In this document: positions 3,001-19,900 of the stretch, piece by piece | Position numbering within the stretch: position 1 is the first letter of the stretch | Layout of the letters: each line of letters starts with the position of its first letter | Origin: Diadema antillarum | Lineage: Eukaryota | Direction of reading: 5' to 3' | Length of the DNA stretch: 64,000 nucleotides | NCBI RefSeq assembly: GCF_040938485.1 | Contig: NW_027271002.1 | Span: 310,001 to 374,000, forward strand | Program-made: the position numbers

Positions 3001-6000
3001 TTGAGGGGGTTATATTTCTTGGAGTCATCATCTCCATCATTGATAAACATCTAATCTCAGATGATTACTGTAAAACGAGGAATGTGCGCGTGCATTTCAA
3101 TTTCGCGAATTTCGCGAGCACCAAGATTCGCGAAATTAAAATGCTCGCAAAATTTCTTATCTACACTATATGCATTGAACGGAAGTGGCAATTTGCGAAA
3201 ATTTCTTGCCACAAAAAAGGTCGTCGGCTCCAATTCATGAAAATTTCGTGCTGCGAATATATCATGTTTTACAGTAATTTGTTAGGTATAAAGAAAGCCT
3301 CAGAGAGCTAGAAAAAAGTAGAGTTCTACACAGACTAAACACCAATTTGGTTTCTTTCTATCTACATAAATTTCTTCCAGTGAATTAACACATTCAGTTA
3401 CAGTGAACATGGTATCAGCCACTGAGAGTTGACAGAAATGAGCTCTTCACAGTAACTGGGGAATGAGAAGAGACTAGATGATGATCGAAGTTTGAGGAGT
3501 CGGGTTTTCTGTTTCTCATTCTGTGGTATGTCATTCCTTGGCTTCAAGTGAGAAGAAAATTAGGCATCCAGAAATGAGATGAGGCACTAAAATACCTGTA
3601 AAAAAAAATAATTCATTCTGAAAGAAATGATGGATACTGACCACACATAATGTACGGTAATCACAATGAAGTTAATTTAATAGTATTCATTCTTTTTTAT
3701 CATTGTAGATGTGTCTACATAGACAAGCACAAAACAAAGTTGATTCATCGTGACAACGAATAAAAAGTCTTCTACAGAGACACCAACACTATTCAGACCT
3801 TGCCTTCAATTAGACATAACTTTGTTCTTGCAGTTTGTAATTTCAGCCTGGAGTCTTTTTATAAGATTACCATAATCCATTCATGACTTCTCATCTGGAA
3901 GATACTAGGGTGATGACATGTTGTGATTCAAGTTATCATTCTAAGTTTCTCATTTTAAATTTAATGACTGTTTATTACAACCTTATGACATGTAGCTGCT
4001 CTGGCCTTTCTACCCCATGACTAAACTTGAGTACAATGTGAAGGAACCGTATTTTACCACTATAATCAATTCTTTCATGATTTGCGTTCATTCTCATACC
4101 CCCCCCCCCTTAACTGTATCTTTTGAGTGTTGAATTCTGAAGGCTACATACTGCTACCATGAAAATGGATTATTTATCAAAAGAAAGAAAAAAGCCATGT
4201 ATGATGCATATCAAAAGTCAAAGAAAACTCACCCACACATTGTCACACCTCTATCCCCTATTAGCTGTCAAACGTAGAATTTTATTCAATTTGATGGGAG
4301 TATTAATATACTCATTAGACACTATTCAGTTACAATGCTGGGAGGTTAACATCAAAAACGCTTAACTGATAGGACAGGAAAGTGTGCACTAATCCTGTAC
4401 AAAACAAATGGACAGCGTGCGGTCCTCAAGCGTATTACGCACATCACCTGAGACCACTCAAAGACGCTTGATAAACAACAACAACAACTTCAAAAACAGC
4501 GCGTCTCTGGTGATATGCGTCTTTGCCTGAGACGCGCTGTCTTTGAAGTTGTGGTTTATCAAGCGCCTTTGATTGTTTTTAGATGATGTTGTTGCCAAAT
4601 TCTTGCCTCCACGAAATAATCCTTATTACTATAAAATCTCGTTCTTCAAAATAATCCCCTTAATCGAAAAAAAAAAGCTACTGCTATAATTTTCAAATCT
4701 TTTTAAGATAATAAAAATACCACTACATTTGGAAATGAATGACGTTTCTACGTGTTCTGAGTTTGTACTTAGCTATCTTTTGTATCATCATGTAGGGTAA
4801 CCATTTTGTGTCCATTTTTATCGCGCGCCTTCCTATCTTGTTACCTCTACTATCTTTGGTTAACATTTTGGTAAAAATGTAATTTTGACATGGTTTTGGC
4901 TCATTAAAAAAAAATGTGAAAATAATGTCTTGCAAACAAATACACTGTCATTAAAACAGTATTTGGTTAGGCTGATAATATACAACAACAAAAAGAATGT
5001 CTGGCTAGCTGTATTTGTCTCAAGATTTATTTCAGTGAATTCTGAGAAATTGACTTAAATCAAGACAAATAAATTCTTCACCATTCTCTTCCTCTGCAGA
5101 CATCACCTTGAAATATCTCAAGAGATTCCTGCAGGCTGCTGGTCTGAACTACAAACCACTCTCAAATTGGCAACACTTCACTCTTTCCAAGATCTGGAAG
5201 CATCTGGGATATGGTTGGTGAAGCAACCACCGGGGTCCACAAATGGAAAGTTTTTGAACGGAAATGTCTTCTGAGGTTGTCTCGGTGCTATTTCTGACAT
5301 GAGGAAAAGTTAGACACATTGAATCACACAAGAGAAAGGAAGCAACGATTGTTCAGTCTGGAAGAGAGAAGTGAGCTAAGGAGAAGTCAGCGACTACAGT
5401 GATGACAGAGAAAATCCCTGGGGACATTTCCGAGAACGTGAGGAGGTGGTAACCTTCAGTCTAGTAACCTGGAGAGAACAGGTTGGAACAAACTGAGACG
5501 GAAGTTAGATGACAGCAATAACTACTCCAGGGAATCGATTAAAGTCAATCTCCTTCAAAGAAGAGGGGGAACTGGTGGAGGACTGTGAGTTTGAGTCATC
5601 CATTTCAGTTTTGACATGGACAATCAGACAGTTTTGCTTAAAAATCCAATTTCAGAGGTGAAGGAATCATGAAATGAACATTTGAATATATAGAGCAAAA
5701 AGGGGCAATTATTACCAATCACATACCACAGAACAAATATTTGTGAGAATCCCAATTTTTGCCAAACTCACTTTGAAGCATTTGATCCAAGATAGGAGAA
5801 AGGCAGAACAATGGCAACAAGAATCCTACATATATGTTCATTCCTGCAGATGTGCATCCTTACATTAGCACAATTCAGTGGGAACATCCCAGCCAATGGG
5901 GGCTTTGTATCAGAGGGTCAACTTCCCATGGAACCCCATGACCCTTGGGCCTCCCTAGGCTACAACTTTCCAAGTGTTCCAGTCAACCCAAACACTCCCT

Positions 6001-16900: not shown

Positions 16901-19900
16901 AACTCTTTGTATTTCATGACAACGATGTGTAACAAACCAGGAGAACACACAGTTACTACCATCCATCATGCCACATCTTCCCTCACACACTGACCACACC
17001 ACTTCAAACTCATCATGGCACATTTCAAATGTTGGAATCCGACTCCCAGTACCACTGCTATGATCCAAACTCTGTAAAGAAGATACTAACCCAACTGTAT
17101 TCTAATCAAGAAGTCAAGTCATACCAAAAGTCAATGCACTTTGATGCTGAGGGACTTTAAAAGGTGTTTGAAGTCTGCAGTCTCTTAATCTCATTATGAA
17201 GCTCCAAAAATTCATGTCGCAGCAACAGATTTCGTCACAGCTAAGCGATAGATTTTGTCACATCTAACCATAAAAAAAGAAGAAAAACAAAGTGTCAATC
17301 CCAATCAATCAACTCTCAGCTTCTTTGCAAACTCTTGAACAAACTCTCAAACAAGCTGATATATGGTGACCTTGGAGATGAATAACTAGCATCTCTCACA
17401 AGGGAGATAAGCTTCCCATCGTCATGACAACAGACGAAGATGAAGTTTGAAACAGTTGACACATCAGCACGCTTCCTTCATTAGCAACTTTAATGTAGGA
17501 TGAAAGAAAATGAAAGTTTGTCTCATTCAATTTCCTGAAATAAAATGACTTTCAGGCAGGATGACATTCAGTCGACTCAGTTCCTAGAAACTCCCCGAGG
17601 AATTAATCGAAACTTGCTTTATCTTAAAATGCCCCTCCCAAAATCTCCAGCAATTTATCTCTTTTTTTCCCCTTTATTCTAACTTTTCAATCCTCTTGTT
17701 TTCCATGCAACAGCTTTGATTCGATCTCCTTTTAGTGCAAATCGATACATTTTTTTTCTCTTATAATGATTTAATGAGTCTTGAAAGCGAGACACTGAGT
17801 AATTTGTGATATAAAAAGCACCAGAAATAGAATATATTATCAATATCATAAATTATATCATACCTATTTCTTCCTTTCAGCAACACTTACATTTCAAGTC
17901 CAAATTCACTTCTTTGACATAGAAGGATGCTATGAACACTATAAAGATGTATGGTTTATAGTGTTCATACTAACTTGTAGTACTTTGCTGAAGACTATGA
18001 AATAAATGAGAAAATTTGATATGTCTTTGACAAATAGTGATTGTTTGTTTTTGTCTATTTTTTTTTTATTTTCCCTGCAGGACCTAGAACCAGACTCACA
18101 GTACACTGTGTGTGTTAGCATCATCCTAATCAACATGAGCCAGACGAATGCTGTCCTCAGGGACCAGTGTGTGGAGGTGCGCACTCGCTCATTGTCCCTC
18201 AATGAGACTGGGTTACCCGTTACCATGGTAGCCATCATCTTGGGAGGCGTGGTGGTAGCACTCATCCTCATCATGCTCTTGGCTCTATGCTGTCAGAGGA
18301 AGTGTCTCCAGACGAGGAGGGCTGTGATTGGTGCAGCAGCCACTGTGAGACGAGCCAGGGCCCAGCAGACCTGTGAGATCCATGGCAACCCAAAGACACC
18401 TCTAGCACCACGGCCATCAGCTGGGAACCCACCAAAGAAGGAGCATGAATACAGCAAACCTGGACCACCTGTTAAGGAAAGAGCACCTCCTAAATTTGGC
18501 TCACCACCCAACAATAGAGTACTACCACATACTAGAACACAAGCACTGACTCCAAAGCCTCTTCAGCTCATGCAGCCTTCCAGAAAACCTGACATCACTA
18601 CAGCCCATGTCTCAGGAAGATGTATCCACGCCAACAATGGAAACAACTCAGCCTCCAGCCCCAAGGATACCTTAGTGATCGACATCCCACCAACGGTTCC
18701 AGAGCATGACATTGCCATGGATGCCATTAAGAAAGCTGCAAGGAACCCAGAGGACCCTGCCATGCAGTCAAGCTACTACGCCCGCTCCTATTCCATCTCT
18801 AGCTCTGAGTACACAGAACATTCTCTCTATGGAGGCAGTAGGAATCCTCTTGTGTCTGCCGTTACCAGGACGACGACACACCCACCTTCCAGTGTATTCA
18901 GGGCTCTACCAAGGTCTGTAGCAAATCACATGATGCGAATCAAAAATGCCCGCGACAAAGATGCAACGGAAGACTTTGATATGGCGAGAACCTACTTCTT
19001 GCCTCGTGCATGACGAGAATAGCAGAGACATGGAAAACCATGGAGCTATAGAAAGAGGCAGTATTTTCTTCAGTACCTATTCTTGCGTGATATAATCACT
19101 GACAAAGGGAGTATGAGGGAGGCAACTGTTGGACAGCAGTAATTATGGCTTCCGCCGGTGTGTGCCACGAGCCAGCCAGGATACCTAAACTTGACAGTCG
19201 GGGCAAGGAAGGAGGAGGTCCTTTCTGGGGGCAATGAGCCTCTCAAACAGAGCAGAAAATAGCTTTAGAGCAACATGAAGAGGAACCCAAGGATGTATCG
19301 TGTGTCTTCTCCTCATGTAGACTACTGTCTCACAGACAGCTACACTACAGCAGACATACAGACTTTTGAAGTCAGTATGAAGGATGTTAGATAAGACTTG
19401 AGTTTCTCTGCGCTCATCACAGGAATGGGGCTTGAAGAGTGTAGAGGAAATGACACTACATTCCAATCTCAGACATGAGGCAATGGTTCAAAGGGAGGTC
19501 AATGTGGCAATGATTCAAAGGAAGGTCAGAGTGGCAGACCAGCTGGAAACTGTGAGAGAAAGCCACTAGAGAGATTGAGGCTTATTGTTTCATCATTAAG
19601 GCAGAAGCAATGTGTGCATGAAAGAAACCTCATGAATATTCATGACAGCTGAAGTAGAAATGTACCTAATTCAATTTCTACCTTTACTGTAGCAAACTAG
19701 AGCAGGATTATAAAGTTACTGCAAATGCACTGATGGCTTTCGATTGACACAAAAACATAAAACAGTATTATGACATCAATCAGAATTGAATCAAAGCCAC
19801 ATGTACAATTTGTACTGTAAGTACAGCTGTAGCATTGCATGTAATTTCAGCTTTTCGGCAAAGGATATTGTAATAAGCATCAATATATCTCATCAATGCA

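What the first reader, a model, noticed from the sequence alone, without database searches (positions are those of the whole stretch)
5811..19013. Type I membrane protein joining a spicule-matrix-like Gly/Pro/Asn repeat region to EGF-FN3-TM
Seen in sequence: a 670-aa spliced product with signal peptide, ~240-aa P/G/N/Q-rich region (HPSNPNPNNPGN, (PSNPGGRQ)x4), one EGF, one FN3, TM and a ~250-aa tail. Established knowledge: EGF-FN3-TM is the membrane-proximal layout of vasorin/slit-like-2 proteins, which carry LRRs N-terminally, and sea-urchin spicule matrix protein SM50 contains GGRQP repeats and PNNPN runs. Inference: this could be an undescribed membrane-tethered, intrinsically disordered matrix or biomineralization protein, or a receptor whose LRR module was replaced by an elastomeric repeat. 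I do not recognise it as a named gene.
Basis: partly seen in the sequence, partly recalled or inferred. Interest (0 to 1): 0.68.

Follow-up and report, generated by a model that had tools for sequence, protein, structure and literature searches.

The report
Uncharacterised sea-urchin EGF-FN3 membrane protein
This is a real two-coding-exon sea-urchin gene for a single-pass cell-surface protein with a floppy proline-rich outer arm, found so far only in echinoderms and never studied; nothing yet links it to skeleton building.

Summary
Exon 1 (5811-6890) and exon 2 (18081-19013) have canonical GT/AG sites in phase 0. They encode 360 + 310 residues that match Diadema antillarum RefSeq "uncharacterized protein" models (360/360 and 310/310). 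The window is sea urchin, not human.

Confirmed features:
- signal-like N-terminus
- 236-aa P/G/N-rich, basic, cysteine-free region with four PSNPGGRQ units, from a 24-bp DNA tandem repeat
- one EGF and one FN3, the FN3 split by the 11.2-kb intron
- transmembrane helix and a 239-aa tail

An exhaustive HMMER scan with exon 2 found relatives only in echinoderms: urchins, a sea star and a sea cucumber. All are unnamed or "uncharacterized".

Conservation peaks in the FN3, the transmembrane and juxtamembrane segment, and a C-terminal 45-aa motif. The repeat region is the least conserved part. The sea-cucumber orthologue has only about 40 residues there.

I therefore read it as an echinoderm-restricted type I receptor or adhesion protein whose outer stalk is expanded in echinoids. 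The biomineralisation idea rests only on composition and short motifs. The protein has no C-type lectin domain, no significant match to spicule proteins, and no expression data. The "LRR replaced" idea is not supported.

The parts
5811..6890 (+). Coding exon 1 (360 codons): signal-like N-terminus, P/G/N-rich region, EGF, first half of FN3
   Evidence: 360/360 identical to D. antillarum RefSeq protein P0019.
5811..5870 (+). Hydrophobic N-terminus (residues 1-20), presumed signal peptide
   Evidence: Kyte-Doolittle maximum of exon 1 lies at residues 5-23. AF2 helix 2-23. Urchin orthologues start at the same position. No signal-peptide predictor was available.
5871..6584 (+). Pro/Gly/Asn-rich, basic, cysteine-free low-complexity region (residues 21-258), with a conserved island at 21-52
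   Evidence: Composition. pLDDT below 50. Identity to Lytechinus is 69% for 21-52, 42% for 53-201 and 52% for 202-258.
6143..6261 (+). 24-bp tandem repeat, 5.0 copies, encoding the PSNPGGRQ units
   Evidence: TRF score 196, 92% matches. Sequence read.
6585..6701 (+). EGF-like domain (residues 259-297, six Cys)
   Evidence: Pfam PF00008 27 bits against cut-off 21.5. Notch EGF chains in PDB at E=5.7e-15.
6702..6890 (+). FN3 domain, first half (residues 298-360)
   Evidence: Pfam fn3 profile positions 1-38 of 84. AF2 strands with pLDDT 70-85.
6891..18080 (+). Intron, 11,190 nt, phase 0, GT...AG; holds a minisatellite and an inverted-repeat element
   Evidence: All 7 intron ORFs of 80 aa or more lack a Pfam match above cut-off.
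18081..19013 (+). Coding exon 2 (310 codons plus stop): second half of FN3, TM, cytoplasmic tail
   Evidence: 310/310 identical to D. antillarum RefSeq protein P0018.
18081..18188 (+). FN3 domain, second half (residues 361-396), with a conserved Cys pair and an N-x-S sequon
   Evidence: fn3 38.6 bits on the whole RefSeq protein. Foldseek top hits are FN3 domains, TM-score 0.75-0.87 normalised to the target. Alignment.
18219..18293 (+). Transmembrane segment (residues 407-431), followed by a Cys- and Arg/Lys-rich juxtamembrane stretch
   Evidence: Hydropathy 3.19. AF2 helix 407-443. 36/38 identical to Lytechinus over 396-433.
18294..19010 (+). Cytoplasmic tail, 239 aa, no Pfam family, predicted disordered
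18876..19010 (+). Conserved C-terminal 45-aa motif (R-[AE]-L-P-x-[ST]-[IV]-[SA]-N-H-[MV]-M-R ... A-R-[DE]-x-D-A ... F-D)
   Evidence: Holds most invariant columns of alignments A1 and A2. 62.5% identical to the sea-cucumber protein, against 19% for the middle of the tail.
1136..1169 (+). Upstream exon used by the 700-aa RefSeq model P0018 (ATG at 1136, donor GTAATG)
   Evidence: tblastn 11/11. Sequence.
5100..5213 (+). Second upstream exon of the 700-aa RefSeq model. That model joins it to an internal acceptor (AG 5867-5868) and so drops the signal peptide.
   Evidence: tblastn. Sequence.

Best explanation
The gene encodes a single-pass type I cell-surface protein of a small family detected so far only in echinoderms.

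Shown: the conserved core is one EGF domain, one FN3 domain, a highly conserved transmembrane and juxtamembrane segment, and a long disordered cytoplasmic tail. The tail ends in a 45-residue motif conserved across urchins, a sea star and a sea cucumber.

Inferred:
- The EGF-FN3 pair binds a ligand, matrix component or neighbouring cell.
- The conserved transmembrane segment and the C-terminal linear motif recruit an intracellular partner, so the protein acts as a receptor or adhesion molecule rather than a passive matrix component.
- In sea urchins the short linker between signal peptide and EGF (about 40 residues in the sea cucumber) is a roughly 240-residue basic, proline-rich, disordered stalk.
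- The internal repeats of that stalk arose by local tandem duplication. They differ between Diadema (PSNPGGRQ units) and Lytechinus (PPVQ/PPVN units).
- The stalk holds a conserved N-terminal peptide (residues 21-52) away from the membrane.
For: Gene model and domains.

Family range:
- Exon 2 scanned against 1.84 billion representatives gave 7 hits at E<=0.001.
- I judge 5 of them real (P0005-P0008, P0010). The named ones are Acanthaster planci and Holothuria leucospilota, plus Diadema and Lytechinus.

Conservation, Diadema against Lytechinus:
- FN3 86%
- TM 95%
- juxtamembrane 89%
- C-terminal motif 82%
- variable stalk 42%

Conservation, Diadema against Holothuria: C-terminal motif 62.5%, middle of the tail 19%.

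Topology:
- The two extracellular sequons (NMS, NET) and the Arg/Lys-rich stretch after the TM fit an N-out, C-in orientation.
- The five full-length orthologues all carry fn3 and EGF: 5 of 11 members scanned, the other 6 being fragments.

Disorder and repeats:
- pLDDT is below 50 for residues 23-302 and for the tail in the Diadema model, and likewise in the Holothuria model.
- The repeat units are near-identical at DNA level.
- D. setosum differs from D. antillarum by an 8-residue indel in this region.
Against: - No ligand, partner, expression site or phenotype is known. The receptor reading rests on the conservation pattern alone.
- The conserved C-terminal motif matches no Pfam family or PDB chain and is not folded by AF2 (pLDDT 28-42). 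Its role as a docking site is a guess.
- The EGF also had low pLDDT (about 36-44), because the alignment has only 11 rows.
- The direction of change is unresolved: stalk gained in urchins or lost in sea cucumbers. The only sea-star model is a 274-aa fragment.
- 'Echinoderm-restricted' depends on a single-sequence HMMER search with exon 2. The profile search was word-limited and missed two known relatives.
- RefSeq's model at this very locus (P0018, 700 aa) uses upstream exons and lacks the signal peptide. The 5' structure therefore needs transcript evidence.
Confidence: 0.55

Rival explanations
1. Membrane-tethered biomineralisation protein. The P/G/N/Q-rich basic region behaves like the repeat regions of spicule matrix protein SM50. 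It acts at the surface of skeleton-forming cells, or is shed into the mineralisation space.
For: - The composition is 25% P, 18% G, 11% N and net basic.
- The protein has one PNNP and repeated GGR-containing units. Papers describe a PNNP repeat motif and GVGGR/GMGGQ repeats in SM50 (passages).
- The family is found only in echinoderms.
- About one third of the 231 proteins in the spicule proteome were membrane proteins, whose ectodomains may have been shed (abstract and passages of PMC2909932).
Against: - No spicule protein appears among hits to residues 23-258: 1 unrelated hit at E=0.027 among 7708 candidates of 198-630 aa.
- There is no C-type lectin domain. The literature ties spicule matrix proteins to one (abstract of PMC5460417).
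- The repeat region is the least conserved part, and the sea-cucumber orthologue has only about 40 residues in its place.
- The strongest constraint lies on the TM and the cytoplasmic motif.
- The Lytechinus identifiers are absent from the searched library. That includes the tables of skeletogenic-cell-enriched mRNAs in PMC13200730.
- The main texts of the spicule and tooth proteome papers do not mention EGF or FN3, and the test/spine paper mentions FN3 only for another protein. I could not see their protein lists, which are in supplements.
Confidence: 0.15
2. A derivative of the vasorin / LRR-FN3 receptor group that lost its leucine-rich repeats and gained a repeat stalk in their place.
For: - I did not check that layout with a tool.
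- There are sub-threshold Fn3_ELFN matches in 4 of 11 members, best E=0.079, 13.3 bits against cut-off 27.
- An Atlas cluster named 'Leucine-rich repeat and fibronectin type-III domain-containing protein' scored 0.89 for exon 2.
Against: - All of these scores are below the tools' own thresholds.
- No LRR was found.
- No relative outside echinoderms was found with exon 2.
- The EGF-FN3-TM part drew FNDC5, FNDC4 and FNDC9 clusters and no cluster named vasorin among the rows shown.
- The sea-cucumber orthologue has no N-terminal module.
Confidence: 0.08
3. An FNDC4/FNDC5-like precursor. The protein is a small-receptor-like membrane protein whose FN3-bearing ectodomain is cleaved off and acts as a soluble factor.
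For: - The nearest Atlas clusters for residues 255-450 are FNDC5 (0.86), FNDC4 (0.85) and FNDC9 (0.85).
- The entry titled 'Myokine structure' (4lsd), which I take from recall to be irisin, ranks fifth in Foldseek.
- The short stretch between FN3 and TM could hold a shedding site. This is inference.
Against: - Scores below 0.9 are leads only, by the tool's own statement.
- No member matches DUF4808 or FNDC9_C in Pfam.
- The FN3 fold is generic, with at least 500 matches at E<=0.001.
- The long conserved tail is unlike those families.
Confidence: 0.07
4. Annotation artefact or non-functional locus: two chance open frames joined by a false intron.
For: RefSeq gives two different 5' structures for D. 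antillarum, of 670 and 700 aa.
Against: - The splice sites are canonical and in phase.
- The same junction appears in four urchin species.
- The FN3 domain is completed only across the junction: 20.5 bits for the half, 38.6 bits for the whole.
- Exon 2 is 77% identical to the Lytechinus protein by BLASTP.
Confidence: 0.02

Closest known systems
RefSeq 'uncharacterized protein' models of echinoderms: D. antillarum XP_071488073.1 and XP_071487171.1, D. setosum XP_072166410.1, L. variegatus LOC121420480 and LOC121420451, L. pictus LOC129266417, A. planci LOC110988329, H. leucospilota HOLleu_22562
   Same: These are orthologues. They share the exon junction, EGF-FN3-TM, the tail and the C-terminal motif.
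   Different: The N-terminal low-complexity region varies in both length and repeat unit. The sea-cucumber protein has about 40 residues there. The sea-star model is a fragment. None has a name or a described function.
Sea-urchin spicule matrix proteins (SM50 group)
   Same: Both have a basic, Pro/Gly/Asn/Gln-rich, repetitive, probably disordered region, with PNNP-type and GGR-type short motifs.
   Different: This protein has no C-type lectin domain. It has a TM and a long tail. It shows no significant sequence match to spicule proteins.
Vasorin / ELFN-type LRR-FN3 receptors
   Same: Both are type I proteins with a membrane-proximal FN3 (preceded by an EGF in vasorin, by recall). There are weak Fn3_ELFN and Atlas signals.
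   Different: This protein has no LRR. All similarity scores are below threshold. The tail is unrelated as far as it could be tested.
FNDC4 / FNDC5 (irisin precursor) / FNDC9
   Same: All have a single FN3 next to a TM in a small type I protein. These are the nearest Atlas clusters, at 0.85-0.86.
   Different: Those families lack the EGF, the long N-terminal stalk and the 239-aa tail. No DUF4808 or FNDC9_C match was found.
Syndecan-like conservation pattern (from general knowledge; not tested here)
   Same: A variable disordered ectodomain is combined with a strongly conserved TM and a short conserved cytoplasmic motif.
   Different: This protein has folded EGF and FN3 domains. I looked for no glycosaminoglycan attachment sites and made no comparison with a syndecan sequence.

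Membership tests
EGF-like domain (PF00008) | Six-cysteine EGF profile above Pfam's gathering score | tested here: met
   27 bits on exon 1 and 26.2 bits on P0019, against cut-off 21.5. Notch EGF chains at E=5.7e-15.
Fibronectin type III domain (PF00041) | fn3 profile above the gathering score, and a beta-sandwich fold | tested here: met
   Exon 1 alone scores 20.5 bits (half a domain). The RefSeq whole protein scores 38.6 bits against cut-off 25. AF2 pLDDT is 70-89, and Foldseek target-normalised TM-scores to FN3 domains are 0.75-0.87.
Type I single-pass membrane protein | N-terminal signal peptide, one TM, basic residues on the cytoplasmic side | tested here: met
   Hydropathy and AF2 helices 2-23 and 407-443. 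An Arg/Lys-rich stretch follows the TM. No dedicated signal-peptide predictor was available, so cleavage is inferred.
Spicule matrix proteins (SM50 group) | C-type lectin domain | tested here: not met
   No lectin family appears among Pfam hits at E<=1 or E<=0.1. The definition comes from the abstract of PMC5460417.
Spicule matrix proteins (SM50 group) | Repetitive Pro/Gly/Asn/Gln-rich region | tested here: met
   Composition and tandem repeat. This holds at motif and composition level only; one search found no significant match.
Spicule matrix proteins (SM50 group) | Secreted and occluded in the biomineral; expressed in skeletogenic cells | not testable with these tools
   No expression or peptide data were at hand, and the proteome lists are in closed supplements. 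The presence of a TM argues against simple secretion.
Vasorin / slit-like 2 | N-terminal leucine-rich repeats | tested here: not met
   No LRR family among Pfam hits.
Vasorin / slit-like 2 | EGF then FN3 then TM | tested here: met
Domain order.
Vasorin / slit-like 2 | Specific sequence relationship | tested here: inconclusive
   No vasorin sequence was available to compare. There were no non-echinoderm hits with exon 2, and no cluster named vasorin among the Atlas rows shown.
FNDC4/FNDC5 | FN3 plus the DUF4808 C-terminal region | tested here: not met
   FN3 is present. DUF4808 is absent from the Pfam hits of all 11 members.

The most novel reading that the evidence does not exclude
The echinoid-specific stalk is a membrane-anchored counterpart of the SM50-type disordered repeat domain. 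The protein would couple the membrane of skeleton-forming cells to the nascent calcite or its matrix, and report this to the cell interior through the conserved C-terminal motif. That would make it a mineral- or matrix-sensing receptor of a kind not yet described in echinoderm biomineralisation.
Probability: 0.1. Interest if true: 0.7.

Novelty: new variant of a known kind. Interest (0 to 1): 0.35.

Why it matters
Echinoderms are a main model for biomineralisation and for developmental gene networks, yet many of their lineage-restricted surface proteins have no assigned role. This family combines three things:
- ordinary adhesion modules (EGF, FN3)
- a fast-evolving, tandemly expanding disordered stalk
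- a cytoplasmic motif conserved across three echinoderm classes and matching no known family

If the motif's partner were found, it could reveal an echinoderm-specific signalling or adhesion link. If expression turned out to be skeletogenic, the protein would be a candidate tether between cell membrane and mineral matrix. As it stands it is a well-supported but ordinary orphan gene.

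Tried and rejected
- **Word-indexed profile search with the exon-2 alignment.** It gave only 4 hits among 5542 candidates and missed P0006 and P0007, so it added one fragment (P0023) and no new taxa.
- **Repeat region 23-258 against proteins of 198-630 aa.** It gave one unrelated hit, P0024, which carries PF00849 and PF01479.
- **PDB sequence search with the exon-2 profile.** It returned only transmembrane-segment noise, best E=0.058.
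- **Two low-complexity hits (P0009, P0011).** I set them aside after reading their sequences. They are long internal repeats that match the hydrophobic or FN3-end stretch.
- **Atlas searches.** Only the first row reached 0.9 (0.94), an unnamed 'hypothetical protein' cluster that could not be followed up. That query's recognition value (2036) was below the tool's benchmark of 2300. I treat all rows as leads.
- **AF2 of the Diadema and Holothuria proteins.** Only the FN3 and the TM were confident. Nothing was learned about the EGF orientation or the tail motif.
- **Foldseek.** It returned generic FN3 domains only.
- **Literature.**
  - 'Egff' names led only to LamG/Egff genes.
  - Seven family identifiers gave 0 papers.
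  - The proteome papers' main texts do not mention this domain pair.
- **S. purpuratus orthologue.** None with a name turned up, so gene-name-based literature searches were not possible.
  - The exons were searched separately and the joined model was not made or searched. Whole-protein steps used RefSeq proteins returned by the tools.
  - No complex-prediction job was sent, because I claim no specific binding pair.

Full report

Yes. An ATG lies at 5811, and the frame stays open to a GTGAGT donor that begins at 6891. A long pyrimidine tract and CAG precede 18081, and the frame then runs to a TGA at 19011-19013. Exon 1 is 1080 nt (360 codons). Exon 2 is 930 nt plus the stop (310 codons). The intron is in phase 0. 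The underlying open frames are 390 and 335 codons long, in DNA of 38-47% GC.

- **Short motifs.** HPSNPNPNNPGN is there, as are four PSNPGGRQ units followed by a degenerate fifth.
- **DNA repeat.** The units are encoded by a 24-bp tandem repeat at 6143-6261, with 5.0 copies, 92% matches and score 196.
- **Composition.** Residues 23-258 are 25% Pro, 18% Gly and 11% Asn, with 24 Lys/Arg against 6 Asp/Glu and no Cys.
- **EGF.** The Pfam EGF match is above its cut-off, 27 bits against 21.5.
- **FN3.** The intron splits the domain. Exon 1 alone gives profile positions 1-38 at 20.5 bits. The whole RefSeq protein gives 38.6 bits against a cut-off of 25.
- **TM.** A strongly hydrophobic segment covers exon-2 residues 47-71.
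- **Tail.** It is 239 residues long.

**2.

Exon 2 matched NCBI "uncharacterized protein [Diadema setosum]" (678 aa, E=3.4e-201). It also matched [quoted passage not shown] (678 aa, 77% identity, E=1e-145).

The cluster look-up added two Diadema antillarum RefSeq proteins:
- P0019 (670 aa) is 360/360 identical to exon 1 and 309/310 identical to exon 2.
- P0018 (700 aa) is 310/310 identical to exon 2. Its different N-terminus comes from two upstream exons, which I found in the window at 1136-1169 and 5100-5213. Both have canonical splice sites. That model joins them to an internal acceptor (AG at 5867-5868) and so removes the hydrophobic N-terminus.

The window is therefore a Diadema sea-urchin locus, most likely D. 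antillarum, and not human.

It shares its start and its FTLT|DLEPD junction with D. setosum, L. variegatus and L. pictus. tblastn of the Lytechinus protein finds only these two coding blocks in the window. I take the 700-aa form to be a mis-joined or minor isoform, because an EGF and an FN3 need entry into the secretory pathway. That is inference.

Whole-protein analyses used the RefSeq proteins that the tools returned.

**3. The family**

HMMER of exon 2 against 1.84 billion representatives gave only 7 proteins at E<=0.001. After reading the sequences, I judge five to be real relatives. The other two (P0009, P0011) are long internally repetitive proteins that match the hydrophobic stretch.

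Names exist for Acanthaster planci LOC110988329 (a 274-aa fragment) and Holothuria leucospilota HOLleu_22562 (399 aa), besides the urchin proteins. Three clusters carry no name, and I did not trace them. A word-indexed profile search added one more unnamed fragment and missed two known members.

All names are "uncharacterized" or "hypothetical". None of seven identifiers of the family occurs in the searched paper library.

**4. Anatomy and conservation**

Identity between Diadema and Lytechinus, by region (alignment A2):

| Region | Identity |
|---|---|
| Signal peptide | 30% |
| N-terminal island (residues 21-52) | 69% |
| Variable P/G/N region | 42%, with 40 gap columns |
| Pre-EGF region | 52% |
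| EGF | 74% |
| FN3 | 86% |
| Linker and TM | 95% |
| Juxtamembrane | 89% |
| Middle of the tail | 66% |
| Last 45 residues | 82% |

Against the sea-cucumber protein, the last 45 residues keep 62.5% identity while the middle of the tail drops to 19%. Most invariant columns of the family lie in that C-terminal motif.

The sea-cucumber protein has only about 40 residues between its signal peptide and its EGF. The repeat units also differ between species: PSNPGGRQ in Diadema, PPVQ/PPVN units in Lytechinus. D. setosum and D. antillarum differ by an 8-residue indel in this region.

AF2 modelled only the FN3 and the TM helix with confidence, both for the Diadema protein and for the Holothuria protein:
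- Diadema: FN3 pLDDT 70-89; residues 23-302 and the tail below 50.
- Holothuria: FN3 pLDDT 71-93.
- The EGF scored low in both, probably because the alignment has only 11 rows.

Foldseek placed the confident part among ordinary FN3 domains, with TM-scores of 0.75-0.87 normalised to the target. The tail matches no Pfam family and no PDB chain.

**5. What it most likely is**

The constraint sits on the FN3, the TM and juxtamembrane segment, and a cytoplasmic linear motif. It does not sit on the low-complexity region. That pattern fits a receptor or adhesion molecule that passes something to an intracellular partner.

The stalk looks like a lineage-specific extension that grows and shrinks by tandem duplication. 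It possibly holds the conserved N-terminal peptide away from the membrane.

Shown:
- the gene model
- the domains
- the topology features
- the family's range in current databases
- the conservation pattern

Inferred:
- ligand binding
- partner recruitment
- the role of the stalk
- the direction of its evolution

**6.

*Biomineralisation.* Papers do describe a PNNP repeat motif in SM50 (passage of PMC2614417). They also describe GVGGR/GMGGQ and Pro,Asn-rich repeats (titles in the reference list of PMC6771980). So the likeness in motifs and composition is genuine.

The evidence against is heavier:
- The region has no significant match to any spicule protein.
- The protein lacks the C-type lectin domain that the literature links to spicule matrix proteins (abstract of PMC5460417; Pfam).
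- The region is poorly conserved.
- The Lytechinus gene IDs are not among the skeletogenic-cell mRNAs tabulated in PMC13200730 (passages).

The spicule proteome paper reports that about a third of its 231 proteins are membrane proteins, perhaps shed (abstract and passages of PMC2909932). Such a route is therefore conceivable. The protein lists are in supplements that I could not open, so this remains unchecked.

*LRR replacement.* No LRR was found. Only sub-threshold Fn3_ELFN signals appeared, in 4 of 11 members with best E=0.079. One Atlas cluster scored 0.89. The EGF-FN3-TM part drew FNDC5, FNDC4 and FNDC9 clusters at 0.85-0.86 rather than vasorin. All of these are leads below the tool's own bar.

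**7. Surroundings**

One search listed 130 open frames of 70 aa or more. I scanned the 55 that are at least 80 aa long and lie outside the two exons.
- 3 of the 55 had any Pfam hit at E<=0.01, and only one was above its cut-off. That one is a SID-1 family exon on the minus strand at 39539-39838 (56.1 bits against 28.7).
- No C-type lectin or other domain that I associate with biomineralisation appeared among the Pfam hits.
- The frames I did not scan were those shorter than 80 aa and those overlapping the exons.

**8. Verdict**

The gene is already predicted in RefSeq, but it is unnamed and unstudied.

It is a new variant within a familiar kind: a modular type I surface protein. It is notable for a fast-evolving disordered stalk and for a cytoplasmic motif conserved across three echinoderm classes.

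Interest is moderate to low until expression or a partner is known. Still unchecked are eukaryotic genome or transcriptome data, the S. purpuratus orthologue, all supplementary tables, and the closed metagenome and viral collections.

Noticed in passing
window 39539-39838 (-): An open frame matches the SID-1 dsRNA-gated channel family (PF13965, 56.1 bits, E=3.4e-15, profile positions 340-407). It is probably one exon of a neighbouring SIDT-like gene on the opposite strand.
   Followed up: no
window 1136-1169 and 5100-5213 (+): Two upstream exons with canonical splice sites are used by the 700-aa RefSeq model of D. antillarum. That model splices into an internal acceptor at 5867-5868 and loses the signal peptide. 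They may really be 5' UTR exons.
   Followed up: partly
window 9638-9774 and 10312-10460, also 9878-9924 and 10236-10282: Nested inverted repeats, 95-96% complementary, lie inside the intron. They look like a foldback or MITE-like element.
   Followed up: no
window 14371-14666: A minisatellite of 34/68-bp units (8.8 or 3.8 copies, 73-81% matches) lies inside the intron.
   Followed up: no
window 43875-44127: A run of 253 N (assembly gap or masked stretch). I left it alone.
   Followed up: no
window 6029-6640 (-): A 203-codon open frame lies antisense to the repeat region of exon 1. It is rich in Gly, Leu and Pro. I take it to be a shadow of the biased composition, not a gene.
   Followed up: no
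window 2179-2631 (+): A 151-codon open frame upstream of the gene has no Pfam match. It could be an exon of a neighbour or a repeat element.
   Followed up: no
This is either a very recent duplication or uncollapsed haplotypes.
   Followed up: partly
window 20237-20512 (+): There is a weak, sub-threshold match to a CUB domain model (PF25142, 18 bits against cut-off 28). It is probably chance.
   Followed up: no
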